From NCBI GenBank assembly GCA_026770705.1, contig JANJGN010000021.1, positions 97,092,001 through 97,156,000 on the forward strand: DNA of 64,000 nucleotides, read 5' to 3'. The stretch comes from Isurus oxyrinchus. Lineage: Eukaryota. Positions 45,001-64,000 of this stretch are shown in pieces. How positions within the stretch are numbered: the first letter of the stretch is position 1; each line of letters starts with the position of its first letter. Position numbers: made by a program.

Positions 45001-48000
45001 CTTTTATGGCACCAAGCTTGGAGTCTGTGGAGAATGAGCAAGAAAGACAGCAGCCTTTTGAGCCGGCAGTCCATAAGACCATAAGACATAGGAGCAGAAA
45101 TTAGGCCATTCGGCGATCGAGTCTGCTCCAACATTCAATCATGGCTGAGTCATCAGTTTCAAAGCTGGCAATAGCGAAACAAGACAGCATAGTCCACCTT
45201 TGTGGGGTGGATGCCACAGGGAGAGTGTTCGAAGATATTTAAATTCTGCTCGGCTTTGAACGTCTACTTCTTTCCTGCAGCGAAGCAGCAAAGCAATCAC
45301 TCACGTGCGTTGCCATCGATGTATTGTGGTTAGTGAGCGGCGTTATAATTGCAGCAGCTTCTGAATGATTCCAATTGACGACAGCGCGTGTTTTGCTGTC
45401 CGACTTCTGCTAAAAGACGGCAATTGGGGACTTTAAAATTATATTTGATAGCAAAGCACATTTAATCCTTCCAAATCTAGCACCGTCACGTGTCTGTGTG
45501 TCATGCCTCTTCTCCATGATTTACCTTCCTTTCGCACTCACCAACCTCCTTGACTTCATTCCTTCCATTTAATAATCCGCCTGCTGCGGCAGGTGCATGG
45601 TTGAATTGATTTTGCTACTATTGCTGTTTCTGGTGTAATATAACTAATTCACAGCAATGGCATCTGTGCTTTGAAAGCAATGGCTGCATAGAGATCTGTG
45701 TGACAGCAGACAGCCAAGCACTGCACAGGCAGGGTTGAAATCGAAAAATCTCGACGCGTTTGCTCGCGAAATTTTCTTGCGAACCTCTCCATACAGTCAG
45801 TGTTGGAAGTAAAAAGAGAAATAGTTGACAAAATTAATCATAGCAGTCTGGCAGGTTCTGTCGGAAGAGAAACAGGGTTAACTTTGCAAGTCTCAGTTTC
45901 CCAGTGCTTTTCTGCTTTTATTTGAGGCTTATAAATTGCTCTGTCTTCTCCAACAATCACACCATCTCCCCACCTGGATCGTCACACACACTCCCAGCAC
46001 ATTTCAATCCATAACACCGATTACATTTCTACTTCTGTTCAACCCTGAACAAGTGTCTTACGGACTCAAATGCACCTCCATTTCTGTCTTCACAGATCTG
46101 CCAGAACGGTTGCGGTTATTTTCAGTTTTCACTTCACAATTGCAGCAACCGCATTATTTTACCTAAAAGTTACCTTGTTACTGTCTTCAGAGTAGCTGTT
46201 TGCTCATCTCAGCACTTGCTGCATTCATGTTGGCATTGGAGACGTTGGTTCTGAATAGCTTTGTTCCAATTCACAGAAAATTGTTCTCTTCAAATCCAGA
46301 GAAAATTATGCTGTTAGGTTGTACCTCATTTTGTCTCGGAGTTATTCCTCGCCCTTTTATGCTGGCACTGCCAAACTTGGCGCACATTCAACATGTATTC
46401 CCCTGTCAAGAAAGCTTTTCAAGGTGGAACTTCAACTTATGCAACTGCTAATGTCATTCTGAGGTACGCGCAAACCGATGGCGCTACCAGAGTGTTGCAT
46501 AAAACCTCCGAGTTCCTTCTCCTCCACGTGTTAGATGGTACCATCGCGGTGACAGGGGAACAGATCTTTTCAATTAGAGCGCGAAAACTGGATTTCAATG
46601 ACAGTGTGCCACCATTGTTACTATGGCCTGTGAACAAACTGATGAAGGAGCCGATGATAAACTAGGTGCCCAGAAGTGGCGAAAAGGTAATATATTCAAA
46701 GTTGTGCCCTTTTGTAACTCCAACATGGGACGAAGGAAAAGATGTCTCCTTCCAAAAAAATATGTATATATATATATTTCACTTTAGAATCAGTGACCGG
46801 TATACCAGCTGCAATGCACTTTTTTTTTTTTTTTTACCATTTTTCGTAATAGAATGAGCTGCTTTGTAAAGGTAATTCCACGAAACTGTCAGTAAAGAAG
46901 AATCAATGGGGAGCAGTCTTGCACAAACACGAGATACATGTCGGAATCGCATATTCATTCGCCAAATTGACGTTAGAGAGAGTCGGGAGGAGAGCTCTTT
47001 AGTTAGTAAATCAACTGAAGTGGGCTATCTTTCTTGTCAACCAAAGCAGTCTTCAATGTGAGAGCCTATAGGCCTGGAGGGTATGTTTCTATACCTTTTT
47101 ACTTCATATCAGGGATAAGTCCGACGCTGATTCCTGGTAAAATATTGTTTTGCTTTGTGGCAGCAGCAACATCCGTTCTCAGGGAATTTCATAACTCTTA
47201 AGCATAAGTTCAGTTTTCCTTTCGGAATCTGCTGATAGACTTCCTGCACACCTGTAACATTTACACTTTCCATTTCTGCTTTACATCATGTGTAGTGTTT
47301 TCGTTTTGTGTGCATGAAGCTGGAGGATATCTTACAATGTTATTTTAGAAAAGCCGACTCTGATTTGGATCAGTGGACTTTGAACAGCTGTATTATTAAC
47401 TAAAGGTTCTATCAAATGGACGCTGCCAAGCACGACGAAGACAAACGTTTGGAATATGTTTTCATTTTCTCCATTCAATGCAATGCCTGAAATCTGCGGC
47501 CAAAGAACAGGAAGTTTTGCAAACATGGATGCGCAACTCACTCCTCAGCGAGAGGCTTGCCGTGCGATTGAACGGTTTTTTCGAAGTGTTTGGTGGTGAG
47601 GATGTGCTACCAGCCCGCAGCTTGGCGGCCCATGCTCACAGCGACGGGTGGTGCCGTGATTGTATAGTGGTTAGTGCACTGCGTTGTGCGCCAACTTAAA
47701 TTGGGTTCGAATCAGAGCCAGGGCAAAGCTGCTTTCCGTTCTTTAGCTGGAATAACAGGGAGGAATGTTCAAACTTGCAACACCAGTTTGTAATGTGAAA
47801 GTGCAATTCATAATTTCAATATAACACCCCACTAGTCTGTCTTTTGTTATCCAGACTACAATCCAACACCACATCAGTTGTATCTGCCTGCCCAATTCAC
47901 TGATCTCTTTCAATTACTTCATATTTCATTGTCATTTTACTGTGGCATTGTCTCAACTAATACTCTCTATCACACTGACAACGTTGAGTTACTTTTTCTA

Positions 48001-63000: not shown

Positions 63001-64000
63001 TTCTTCTCCTCCACGTGTTGTTTGGTCTCATCGTGGTGACAGGGGAGCAGATCTTTTCAATTAGTGTGCAAGAAATTGATTTCTATGACAATGTGCAACG
63101 ATTGTTACTATGGCCTGTGAAGAAACTGTTGAAGGAGCATGATGTTATACTAGGTGCCCAGAAGTGGCGAAAAAGTACTATATTCAAGGTTGTGCCCTTT
63201 TGTAACTCCAATGTGGGAACAACGGACAAGAAGTCATCTTCCAAAAAAATATGTATATATATATTTCACTTTAGAAACTGCAATGCACTTTTGTTCCATT
63301 TTGCGTAATCGAATGAGCTGCTTTGTAAAGCTATTGCCCTGAAACTGGCAGTAAAGAAGAATCAATGGGGAGCAGACTTGCACAAGCACGAAGTACATGT
63401 CGGAATCTCATATGCATTCAACAAATTGACGTTCCAGAGAGCCGGGAGGAGAGCTCTGTAGTTAGTAAATCAGTTGAAGTGGGCTATCTTTCTTGCCAAC
63501 CAAAGCAATCTTCAATGTGAGAGCCTATTGGCCTGGAGGGTGCGCTTCCATAACTTTTTACTTCATATCAGGGATAGGTCCTACGCTGAATCCTGGTAAA
63601 ACATTGTTTTGCTTTGTGGCAGCAGCAACATCCGTTCTCAGGTAATTTCATAACCCTGATGCATTAGTTCAGTTTTCATATCGAAATCTGCTGTCAGACT
63701 TCCTGCACACCTGTAACATTTACACTTTCCATTCCTGCTTTACAGCATGTGCAGTGTTTTCGTTTTGTGAGCATGAAGCTGGAGGATATCTTACAATCAT
63801 ATTTTAGAAATGCCGACTCTAATTCGGACTGCTGGACTTTGAACAGCTGTATTATTAACTAAATGGAGACTGCCAAGTACCACGAAGACAAACTTTCGGA
63901 ATATGTTTTCGTTTCCTTCTTTCAATGCAATGTCTGGAATTTGTGGCCAAAGAACAGGAAATTTTGGAAGCTTGGATGCTCAATTCACTTTTCTGCGTGA

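What the first reader, a model, noticed from the sequence alone, without database searches (positions are those of the whole stretch)
45312..64000. Single-isoacceptor tRNA-His macrosatellite (2347-bp unit) caught at its edge, with a decay gradient
Seen: each unit carries exactly one full-length tRNA-His(GTG). Units right of ~54.9 kb differ by only a few SNPs, while units to the left are progressively more diverged, down to a barely recognisable tRNA at 45312. Known: tandem tRNA clusters exist in vertebrates (for example Xenopus oocyte-type tDNA and the human chr1 tDNA repeat), usually with several isotypes per unit. Inference: this is a His-only array under concerted evolution, with edge units escaping homogenisation, and possibly a high-dose oocyte/embryo tRNA source.
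Basis: partly seen in the sequence, partly recalled or inferred. Interest (0 to 1): 0.7.

Follow-up and report, generated by a model that had tools for sequence, protein, structure and literature searches.

The report
Tandem tRNA-His array with decayed edge
This is a head-to-tail array of 2.35-kb units, each built around one histidine tRNA gene, with near-identical copies at the right end of the window and progressively older, broken copies to the left; it is a clear but ordinary example of how tandem gene arrays are kept uniform inside and decay at their edges.

Summary
The repeat is real. It has a 2347-bp period and eight units between 45312 and 64000. Adjacent-unit identity rises from 77.6% to 99.7%.

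The claim "one full-length tRNA-His per unit" is only partly true:
- Four of 8 units (52360, 57059, 59406, 61753) carry an identical, intact gene.
- Two of 8 (49981, 54712) are full-length but damaged, including a B-box change.
- Two of 8 (45312, 47653) are relics.

The homogeneous block starts inside unit U4, near 54.89 kb. The first ~170 bp of U4 match unit U2, 4.7 kb away, so units are recombination mosaics.

The edge is much longer than reported. A second, older three-unit array lies at 6767-13836, and scattered relics reach position 82.

My reading is a His-only tDNA array homogenised by unequal exchange and gene conversion, with a long decayed, transposon-invaded flank. I found no sign of an LTR or SINE origin. 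The source organism is unidentified, and neither "vertebrate" nor "oocyte supply" was tested. It is a new member of a known kind, of modest interest.

The parts
57059..64000 (+). Homogeneous core: units U5 (57059-59405), U6 (59406-61752) and U7 (61753-64000, cut by the window end at unit position 2248)
   Evidence: 99.6-99.7% pairwise identity. There are 6-9 substitutions per pair and 0 indel columns, and each copy has private variants.
57059..57130 (+). Intact tRNA-His(GTG) gene of U5. Identical genes lie at 59406-59477, 61753-61824 and 52360-52431.
   Evidence: ARAGORN calls His gtg and Rfam tRNA scores 61.9 bits. The B box reads GGTTCGAATCC, position 73 is A, and the base at -1 is C, not an encoded G.
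57147..57150 (+). TTTT run 17-20 nt after the tRNA 3' end, a likely Pol III terminator. The same run occurs in U6 and U7.
   Evidence: Older units have TTTC here; unit position 92 is C in U2-U4 and T in the core. Their first T4 run is at +61 (U3) or +117 (U2, U4).
54712..57058 (+). Unit U4, a mosaic. About 54712-54880 is U2-like and carries a damaged tRNA. The rest is core-like.
   Evidence: In positions 1-170 there are 4 differences to U2 and 18 to the core. In positions 171-2347 there are 9 to the core and 204 to U2. 18 of 27 differences fall in 7% of the unit (binomial p 7e-15). The tRNA has G1T, G4C, T32C, T33A and C55T (the B-box C) and does not match the Rfam tRNA model.
52360..54711 (+). 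Unit U3: diverged spacer, intact tRNA gene
   Evidence: 93.9% identity to the core. The tRNA has 0 of 72 differences, against 40 of 301 in its near flanks (p 2e-4) and 6.2% over the spacer. Positions 1411-2115 are nearer the core (3.3%) than the rest of the unit (7.3%).
49981..52359 (+). Unit U2: full-length but damaged tRNA-His
   Evidence: 90.5% identity to the core. The tRNA has 4 substitutions, including G1T and the B-box C55T. Rfam scores it 46.5 bits.
47653..49980 (+). Unit U1: tRNA relic
   Evidence: 92.9% identity to the core. The tRNA segment has 13 substitutions and an indel. Neither ARAGORN nor Rfam calls it.
45312..47652 (+). Unit U0: the outermost unit of the contiguous array, with a barely recognisable tRNA at 45312-45383
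   Evidence: 78.0% identity to the core and 45 of 72 ungapped matches in the tRNA segment. BLAST and local alignment recover the unit only from 45661, at unit position 391. Nothing unit-like lies just left of 45312.
6767..13836 (+). Older array of about three units: a rearranged partial unit (6767-9128), OB (9129-11500) and OC (11501-13836)
   Evidence: The units are 71.5% identical to one another at a lag of about 2390, and 64-68% identical to the core. The array ends at unit position ~2275. These units form the sister group of U0-U7 in the tree.
9129..9200 (+). tRNA-His-derived pseudogene whose anticodon has changed from GTG to GTA. ARAGORN calls it Tyr.
   Evidence: 64 of 72 matches to the intact gene and Rfam 46.8 bits. 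The tRNA shows 8 of 72 differences against 29.5% in its spacer (p 5e-4).
11501..11556 (+). Truncated tRNA-His relic; only the 5' 56 nt remain
   Evidence: 91% identity over 56 nt. 5 of 56 differences against 29.5% in the spacer (p 5e-4).
20709..23771 (.). Inverted pair of unit relics: 20709-21536 on + and 23771-22439 on -. Each covers the end of a unit plus a tRNA relic.
   Evidence: tRNA matches are 43 of 72 at 21465 (+) and 51 of 72 at 22439 (-). The arms are about 85% identical to each other.
27926..28879 (.). Unit relics: 27926-28276 on + (tRNA plus 270 bp downstream) and 28879-28657 on - (unit positions 846-1095)
37994..39008 (-). Unit relic spanning unit positions 1850-2198 and 16-392
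82..277 (-). Leftmost unit relic (unit positions 1854-2037, plus a tRNA-like piece)
   Evidence: (E 5e-15 and 7e-4) and 44 of 72 matches at 209 (-).

Best explanation
This is a nuclear tandem tDNA array of an unidentified animal. Each 2347-bp unit holds one RNA polymerase III tRNA-His(GTG) gene of the eukaryotic type and about 2.27 kb of non-coding spacer.

The array is kept uniform by recombination between misaligned units, that is, unequal crossing-over and short-tract gene conversion. These exchanges happen mostly in the interior, which lies to the right of the window. Units at the edge take part less and less often. They drift apart, lose the gene, and are broken up by transposon insertions, inversions and deletions.

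The window therefore reads as a time series from right to left:
- near-identical, transcription-competent copies (57.1-64 kb);
- a junction unit (U4);
- 6-10% diverged units with a mix of intact and damaged genes (47.7-54.7 kb);
- a 22% diverged unit (U0);
- about 31 kb of repeat-rich DNA with scattered relics;
- a 30-35% diverged older array (6.8-13.8 kb).

Shown: the structure, the gradient, the mosaicism, the state of each gene, and past conservation of the gene segment relative to the spacer.

Inferred: the recombination mechanism, that the core copies are transcribed, and that the array extends far to the right.
For: Period and copies:
- Established.
- The tree is a ladder that follows position: (old units) | U0 | U2 | (U1, U3) | U4 | (U5, U6, U7). 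Five of its 8 inner branches have SH-aLRT support of at least 95.

Mosaic units:
- U4 switches from U2-like to core-like between unit positions 168 and 181 (p 7e-15).
- U3 positions 1411-2115 are 3.3% from the core, against 7.3% elsewhere in U3.
- The two halves of U2 differ, at 5-8% and 11-13% from the core.

Gene features of the intact copies:
- Rfam tRNA scores 61.9 bits, the anticodon is GTG and the B box is GGTTCGAATCC.
- Position 73 is A with C at -1, the eukaryotic pattern in which G-1 is added after transcription (the pattern is established knowledge).
- A T4 run lies at +17.

Past constraint on the gene segment, compared with the spacer:
- U3: 0 of 72 against 40 of 301 in the near flanks (p 2e-4).
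- OB: 8 of 72 against 29.5% (p 5e-4).
- OC: 5 of 56 against 29.5% (p 5e-4).

Copies look real:
- U5-U7 each carry 3-6 private substitutions and no indels.

Precedent:
- In the Arabidopsis Ser-Tyr-Tyr tRNA array, most pseudogenes and the most divergent units lie at the array ends. The authors attribute this to unequal crossing-over (PMC2886086, passages read).
Against: - Divergence from the core is not strictly ordered, since U1 (92.9%) is closer than U2 (90.5%).
- A damaged gene sits in the otherwise young unit U4. Homogenisation therefore does not simply favour working genes, and 2 of the 6 full-length genes are probably dead.
- In U0 and U1 the tRNA segment is more diverged than the spacer (37.5% against 21.5%, p 0.002; 18% against 6.7%, p 0.001). 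Simple neutral decay does not predict this.
- The same pattern could come from one recent burst of duplication rather than from ongoing homogenisation.
- Nothing here shows transcription, and tandem tDNA clusters in Arabidopsis are silent (PMC7544208, passages read).
- Only three and a fraction core units are in view. The size of the array, and whether its interior really is homogeneous, are unknown.
Confidence: 0.8

Rival explanations
1. The structure is as described, but the array is a transcriptionally silenced, selectively near-neutral macrosatellite. The tRNA genes merely hitch-hike on unit amplification, and the cell's tRNA-His comes from dispersed genes elsewhere.
For: - Arabidopsis clustered tDNAs (Ser-Tyr-Tyr, Pro-only and Cys-only) are silent and CG-methylated despite canonical Pol III elements (PMC7544208, passages read).
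- A dead gene copy sits in the young unit U4, and 4 of 8 units lack an intact gene.
- CpG observed/expected in the array is 0.57-0.66, so it is not CpG-protected.
Against: - The gene segment was conserved relative to the spacer in U3, OB and OC (p 2e-4 to 5e-4). This needs selection or gene-limited conversion.
- The amplified core variant has a complete gene and a proximal T4 terminator that the older units lack.
- Divergence in the U3 near 3' flank is twice that of the far spacer (24 of 200 against 57 of 901, p 0.01). Thornlow et al. link this pattern to transcription-associated mutagenesis at active tRNA genes (PMC6130373, passages read).
Confidence: 0.35
2. The gradient records successive bursts of amplification, with the newest layer to the right, rather than continuing homogenisation that spares the edge. 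The core is simply a very recent multiplication of one unit.
For: - The tree is a ladder with a tight terminal cluster.
- There is a sharp step from about 6% to about 1% to about 0.3% divergence, rather than a smooth slope.
- The core shares derived states, such as the T4 run at unit position 92.
Against: - Sub-unit mosaicism in U2, U3 and U4 needs exchange between already diverged units, not only duplication.
- The two models are not exclusive, and one genome cannot separate them.
Confidence: 0.3
3. The unit is a mobile element that became tandemised. Candidates are a small LTR retrotransposon carrying a tRNA-derived Pol III promoter in its LTR (Helenus-like) or a tRNA-derived SINE satellite. 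On this view the dispersed relics are solo copies.
For: - Pieces of the unit occur dispersed and in both orientations, and 4 of them share unit positions ~1650-2210.
- Helenus elements form tandem arrays in zebrafish (PMC10886601, passages read).
- tRNA-related tandem repeats are reported in amphibians (PMC12054243, passages read).
Against: - The only matches to a primer-binding site complementary to the tRNA-His 3' end are the genes themselves (6 of 6 matches).
- The unit has no internal long direct or inverted repeats.
- No Pfam domain was found in 10 of the 11 spacer ORFs of at least 70 aa.
- The relics have inconsistent ends (left at 1314, 1623, 1665 or 1850; right at 72, 342 or 392) and cross the tRNA into downstream spacer.
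- The similarity lies upstream of the tRNA, the wrong side for a SINE body.
- The gene is a complete canonical tRNA with its own terminator.
Confidence: 0.05
4. The near-identical right-hand units are an assembly artefact, either over-expansion or collapse of a repeat.
For: Tandem units at 99.7% identity are hard to assemble. No read data are available here.
Against: - Each of U5, U6 and U7 has 3-6 private substitutions and no indels between them.
- The diverged units U0-U4 and the old array cannot be artefacts.
Confidence: 0.05

Closest known systems
Arabidopsis thaliana tandem tDNA clusters: the chromosome 1 Ser-Tyr-Tyr array of 27 units, plus Pro-only and Cys-only clusters
   Same: - Nuclear Pol III tRNA genes sit in head-to-tail units that evolve in concert by unequal crossing-over.
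- Pseudogenes and the most divergent units lie at the array ends (PMC2886086, passages read).
- Single-isotype clusters exist, for Pro and for Cys (PMC7544208, passages read).
   Different: - It is a plant, with different isotypes and other unit sizes.
- Those clusters are shown to be silent and methylated, whereas expression here is unknown.
- Here the decayed flank is tens of kilobases long and transposon-invaded.
Xenopus laevis 3.18-kb tandem tDNA repeat and oocyte-specific tandem tRNA genes
   Same: It is an animal tandem repeat of a few kilobases carrying Pol III tRNA genes. It serves as a developmental supply, activated at genome activation (PMC11500080, passages read; the 3.18-kb repeat with 8 tRNA genes is seen only as a reference title in PMC1635290).
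   Different: - It has eight genes of several isotypes per unit, against one His gene here.
- No stage-specific expression, copy number or species link was tested here.
Entamoeba tRNA gene arrays
   Same: Nearly all tRNA genes lie in tandem array units of 1-5 genes (PMC2652664, abstract start in the search listing; PMC2888827, passages read).
   Different: [quoted passage not shown]
rDNA, 5S and satellite arrays with divergent edges
   Same: The interior is homogenised, while older, more divergent units at the array edge are interrupted by transposons. That edge repeats escape homogenisation is established theory (unequal crossing-over models; McAllister and Werren 1999 is recalled, not read).
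   Different: Those are rRNA genes or non-genic satellites. Here the conserved payload is a 72-bp tRNA gene in a 2.3-kb unit.

Membership tests
Eukaryotic nuclear tRNA-His gene (Pol III type 2 promoter) | Cloverleaf tRNA with a GTG anticodon, recognised by tRNA models | tested here: met
   ARAGORN calls His gtg at 6 sites. Rfam tRNA scores 61.9 bits at 4 sites and 46.5 at 49981, and finds no match at 54712. The feature is met for 4 of 8 units, weakened in 1 and failed in 3.
Eukaryotic nuclear tRNA-His gene (Pol III type 2 promoter) | Internal A and B boxes and a downstream T run of at least 4 | tested here: met
   The B box GGTTCGAATCC is intact in U3 and U5-U7, and is GGTTTGAATCC in U2 and U4. 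The A-box region TCGTATAGTGG is present in U2-U7. A T4 run lies at +17 in U5-U7, +61 in U3 and +117 in U2 and U4. The consensus motifs are recalled.
Eukaryotic nuclear tRNA-His gene (Pol III type 2 promoter) | G-1 not encoded and A at position 73 (the bacterial and organellar type encodes G-1 with C73) | tested here: met
   The base at -1 is C and position 73 is A in all intact copies. The rule itself is established knowledge, recalled.
Eukaryotic nuclear tRNA-His gene (Pol III type 2 promoter) | Transcribed and charged with histidine | not testable with these tools
   No expression or occupancy data are available.
Tandem gene array under concerted evolution | Head-to-tail units of constant period | tested here: met
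   The lag is 2347. Eight units are all on the + strand, and the tRNA spacings are 2379, 2352, 2347, 2347 and 2347.
Tandem gene array under concerted evolution | Evidence of exchange between units (mosaic units or conversion tracts) | tested here: met
   The first 170 bp of U4 are U2-like (p 7e-15). U3 and U2 have regional differences in divergence.
Tandem gene array under concerted evolution | Units more alike within a species than between species | not testable with these tools
   The species is unidentified and no eukaryotic genome collection is available.
Oocyte-type or developmental tDNA array (Xenopus-like) | Stage-specific Pol III activity and very high copy number | not testable with these tools
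   Only 8 units are in view and the array continues beyond the window end.
tRNA-bearing small LTR retrotransposon (Helenus-like) | Primer-binding site next to the LTR, defined LTR termini, solo LTRs with consistent ends | tested here: not met
   There is no site complementary to the tRNA-His 3' end apart from the genes themselves. The unit has no repeat structure. Relic ends are inconsistent. Primer sites for other tRNAs were not searched.
tRNA-derived SINE or SINE-derived satellite | tRNA-related head followed by a body and tail downstream, and a diverged tRNA-like rather than canonical sequence | tested here: not met
   The gene is a canonical tRNA scoring 61.9 bits with a terminator 17 nt downstream. 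The dispersed similarity lies mostly upstream of the tRNA.

The most novel reading that the evidence does not exclude
The array is a dedicated, dosage-tuned supply of tRNA-His for a stage of very high demand, such as oogenesis or early embryogenesis. On this reading its recent expansion was selected rather than neutral. The unit type that took over the core is the one that combines an intact gene with a newly gained proximal terminator, through the C-to-T change at unit position 92 that creates TTTT at +17. Pol III activity at the gene itself may also seed the exchanges, since the U2-like patch in U4 begins within 2 bp of the tRNA start and ends about 100 bp past its 3' end.
Probability: 0.1. 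Interest if true: 0.6.

Novelty: new member of a known kind. Interest (0 to 1): 0.3.

Why it matters
If it holds, the locus is a compact natural record of how a Pol III gene array is born, homogenised and decays. One 64-kb stretch shows copies at about 0.3%, 1%, 6-10%, 22% and 30-35% divergence, with the gene intact, damaged or lost. It also shows a visible exchange junction that places a dead gene next to the young block.

This allows three things:
- measuring how long a tRNA gene stays protected after its unit leaves the homogenised zone;
- testing whether dead tRNA genes decay faster than spacer DNA;
- testing whether single-isotype arrays in animals are supplies or silent satellites.

It does not reveal a new kind of system.

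Tried and rejected
- **Organism identification failed.** Pfam found only a reverse-transcriptase fragment at 4761-5252, below its cut-off (28.5 against 29.6 bits, E 1.6e-6), among 19 ORFs from outside the core unit. The protein atlas placed that fragment among jockey-like reverse transcriptases of arthropods and chordates, which is not diagnostic.
- **Literature searches for the same array found nothing.** A full-text search for the 3' 39 bases of the tRNA found 0 papers. Searches for a tRNA-His tandem array found none describing one. These searches cover only the held open-access library.
- **Tandem Repeats Finder cannot see the array.** Its longest period is 500.
- **The minimum-free-energy fold did not reproduce the full cloverleaf even for the intact gene.** I relied on Rfam scores instead.
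- **The bacterial-type promoter and terminator scan is irrelevant to Pol III genes** and was at background level.
- **A two-unit higher-order repeat in the older part is not supported.** U3 is only slightly closer to U1 (92.2%) than to U2 (90.5%), and the excess is regional rather than unit-wide.
- **A single clean insertion splitting one array is not supported.** The old array ends at unit position ~2275, but nothing unit-like lies just left of 45312.
- **CpG methylation decay does not explain the fast decay of dead tRNA segments.** Only 6 of 27 (U0) and 7 of 26 (U1, ungapped) differences lie at CpG sites.

Not used:
- The bacterial and archaeal genome collection, which is irrelevant to a eukaryotic nuclear array.
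- Structure and complex prediction, since no protein is involved.

Paper supplements were not consulted.
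Full report
**What is there**

The window has no N. ARAGORN finds six tRNA-His(GTG) genes on the + strand at 49981, 52360, 54712, 57059, 59406 and 61753, and one 'tRNA-Tyr(GTA)' at 9128. Their spacings are 2379, 2352, 2347, 2347 and 2347 bp.

Self-identity of 40001-64000 peaks at one lag only, 2347. BLAST of unit 59406-61752 against the window recovers eight consecutive + strand copies from 45.3 to 64.0 kb.

I call the units:

| Unit | Coordinates |
|---|---|
| U0 | 45312-47652 |
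| U1 | 47653-49980 |
| U2 | 49981-52359 |
| U3 | 52360-54711 |
| U4 | 54712-57058 |
| U5 | 57059-59405 |
| U6 | 59406-61752 |
| U7 | 61753-64000 (cut by the window end) |

**The gradient**

| Unit | U0 | U1 | U2 | U3 | U4 | U5 | U7 |
|---|---|---|---|---|---|---|---|
| Identity to U6 (%) | 78.0 | 92.9 | 90.5 | 93.9 | 98.8 | 99.7 | 99.6 |

Identity between neighbouring units rises without exception: 77.6, 88.9, 90.5, 93.8, 98.8, 99.7, 99.6%. U4-U7 have no indels among themselves. U5, U6 and U7 each carry 3-6 private substitutions, which argues for real paralogous copies rather than a duplicated assembly.

A maximum-likelihood tree of 11 units is a ladder that follows chromosomal position: (old units) | U0 | U2 | (U1, U3) | U4 | (U5, U6, U7).

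**State of the genes**

- Four of 8 units (U3, U5, U6, U7) carry the same intact 72-nt gene. It scores 61.9 bits against Rfam tRNA, has the B box GGTTCGAATCC, A at position 73 and C at -1. This is the eukaryotic nuclear arrangement, in which G-1 is added after transcription (established knowledge, recalled).
- U2 has 4 substitutions, including G1T and the B-box C55T, and scores 46.5 bits.
- U4 has 5 substitutions: G1T, G4C, T32C, T33A and C55T. The Rfam tRNA model does not find it even at E<=10 in a 301-base search, although ARAGORN still calls it.
- U1 has 13 substitutions and an indel. U0 keeps 45 of 72 positions. Neither is called by ARAGORN or Rfam.
- A TTTT run follows the gene at +17 only in U5-U7. 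The older units read TTTC there, and their first T4 run is at +61 (U3) or +117 (U2, U4).
- Neither tool calls any other tRNA type inside the array.
- Of the 11 distinct ORFs of at least 70 aa in one core unit, the 10 tested have no Pfam match. The 70-aa ORF at 60505-60717 was left out.

**Mosaic units**

Of the 27 differences between U4 and the core, 18 lie in the first 170 bp (binomial p 7e-15).

| Part of U4 | Differences to U2 | Differences to core |
|---|---|---|
| Positions 1-170 | 4 | 18 |
| Positions 171-2347 | 204 | 9 |

The switch lies between unit positions 168 and 181, that is, about 54,880-54,892.

On the left, the U2-like state starts between 2 bp upstream of the tRNA and its first base.

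Two readings fit:
- A short conversion tract copied from a U2-type unit 4.7 kb away.
- A remnant of a U2-type unit at the junction where the core type stopped spreading.

Both require exchange with breakpoints inside a unit.

U3 is also regionally closer to the core (positions 1411-2115: 3.3% against 7.3% elsewhere). The two halves of U2 differ too, at 5-8% and 11-13% from the core.

**The edge is far longer than reported**

- A second array lies at 6767-13836, with about three units at a lag of ~2390. These units are 71.5% identical to one another and 64-68% identical to the core. It ends at unit position ~2275.
- Its gene relics are the 'Tyr' call at 9129 and a 56-nt stump at 11501. The first is a His gene with 64 of 72 matches whose anticodon has changed from GTG to GTA. 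The stump is 91% identical to the intact gene.
- Between the two arrays (13.8-45.3 kb), and at the far left, 12 BLAST segments match the unit at 59-74% identity in both orientations. They lie at 82-277, 20709-21536, 22439-23771, 27926-28276, 28657-28879 and 37994-39008. tRNA relics sit where the unit order predicts.
- The ends of these pieces are inconsistent, and some cross the tRNA into downstream spacer. They look like shattered array units, not copies of a mobile element.
- The rest of this stretch is made of interspersed repeats, including reverse-transcriptase relics.

**Selection or gene-limited conversion**

In some units the gene segment is less diverged than the spacer:

| Unit | Gene segment | Comparison | p |
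|---|---|---|---|
| U3 | 0 of 72 | 40 of 301 in the near flanks | 2e-4 |
| U3 | 0 of 72 | 6.2% over the spacer | 0.02 |
| OB | 8 of 72 | 29.5% in the spacer | 5e-4 |
| OC | 5 of 56 | 29.5% in the spacer | 5e-4 |

The gene was therefore protected for a long time after these units diverged.

In U0 and U1 the gene segment is, by contrast, more diverged than the spacer (37.5% against 21.5%, p 0.002; 18% against 6.7%, p 0.001). CpG decay does not account for this.

One possible cause is the elevated, transcription-associated mutation rate described for tRNA genes once selection is lost (PMC6130373, passages read). I regard this as unexplained rather than shown. The near 3' flank of U3 is twice as diverged as its far spacer (p 0.01), which fits the same idea weakly.

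**Mechanism**

I conclude that this is a single-isotype tDNA array homogenised by unequal crossing-over and gene conversion in its interior, with a long flank that has escaped homogenisation.

- Shown: the structure, the gradient, the mosaicism, the state of each gene and past constraint on the gene.
- Inferred: the recombination mechanism, Pol III activity of the core copies, and the extent of the array to the right.

**Rivals**

- *Silent satellite.* This stays open (0.35), because Arabidopsis tandem tDNA clusters are silent despite intact promoters (PMC7544208, passages read).
- *Layered recent amplification.* It is compatible with the data but does not by itself explain the mosaics.
- *Mobile-element origin (Helenus-like LTR element or SINE satellite).* This is unlikely. 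No primer-binding site for tRNA-His was found, and all 6 of 6 matches are the genes themselves. The unit has no repeat structure, the relic ends are inconsistent, and the gene is a canonical tRNA with its own terminator.
- *Assembly artefact.* This is unlikely for the reasons given above, but it cannot be tested without reads.

**Comparison with what is known**

- The closest described case is the Arabidopsis Ser-Tyr-Tyr array. Its authors note that most pseudogenes lie at the array ends and attribute this to unequal crossing-over (PMC2886086, passages read).
- Single-isotype clusters (Pro, Cys) exist there too (PMC7544208, passages read).
- Animal precedents are the Xenopus 3.18-kb repeat with eight genes (seen only as a reference title in PMC1635290) and oocyte-specific tandem tRNA genes (PMC11500080, passages read).
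- A survey of eukaryotic tDNA organisation reports same-isotype neighbouring pairs as common in some lineages and large clusters arising many times (PMC2888827, passages read).
- I found no paper describing a tRNA-His tandem array. That covers only the held library, and supplements were not seen.

**Limits**

- The organism is unidentified.
- I do not take the contig for human or any mammal. CpG observed/expected is 0.50-0.70, no 7SL or Alu-type match appeared, and transition/transversion ratios are 0.67-0.91 for the diverged units U0-U4.
- That the gene resembles the animal or vertebrate tRNA-His is recalled, not tested.
- No spliced gene model arose.

**Verdict**

The feature is real and the description is partly right. 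It is a new member of a known kind.

Noticed in passing
window 9128-9201 (+): ARAGORN calls a tRNA-Tyr(GTA). It is a diverged tRNA-His copy (64 of 72 matches) whose anticodon changed from GTG to GTA and whose position 37 changed from G to A. It scores 46.8 bits against Rfam tRNA and has a T4 run at +23. It is an anticodon-shifted pseudogene, or less likely a remoulded tRNA.
   Followed up: partly
window 14898-15385 (+) and 42663-42797 (-): An 88-bp tandem repeat of about 5 copies, 93% internal matches, has a 94-95% identical inverted partial copy 27 kb away. A weak tRNA-like Rfam match (24.9 bits, E 0.82) lies at 15314-15385 on the - strand.
   Followed up: no
window 14896-18767 vs 42797-29934: Three collinear inverted matches suggest an old, large inverted duplication inside the stretch that separates the two arrays: 14896-15385 with 42797-42663, 15394-17763 with 35623-33343 (64.5%), and 17965-18767 with 30766-29934 (64%).
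   Followed up: no
window 20709-21536 (+) and 23771-22439 (-): Two relics of the array unit face each other as an inverted pair. The arms are about 85% identical and the tRNA ends are about 900 bp apart, so the pair is younger than its 63-67% identity to the core suggests.
   Followed up: partly
window 28501-28595 (+): A weak tRNA match with a 36-nt insertion in the anticodon region (Rfam 31.5 bits against a 29-bit gathering score). ARAGORN does not call it. It may be an intron-bearing tRNA pseudogene or a SINE head.
   Followed up: partly
window 4761-5252 (+), with related copies at 40878-41604 (+) and 25986-26595 (-): Reverse-transcriptase relic of a non-LTR retrotransposon (Pfam RVT_1, E 1.6e-6, just below its cut-off). 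The atlas neighbours are jockey-like.
   Followed up: partly
window 6767-7843 (+): The leftmost old unit carries an internal tandem duplication of about 590 bp. 6767-7261 and 7357-7843 are 70% identical, and both match unit positions ~600-1100.
   Followed up: no
units U0-U4, window 45312-57058: Transition/transversion ratios among units are below 1 (0.67-0.91), and CpG sites decay only 1-2.3 times faster than other sites. This is unusual for a heavily methylated vertebrate genome and is a hint about the source organism.
   Followed up: no
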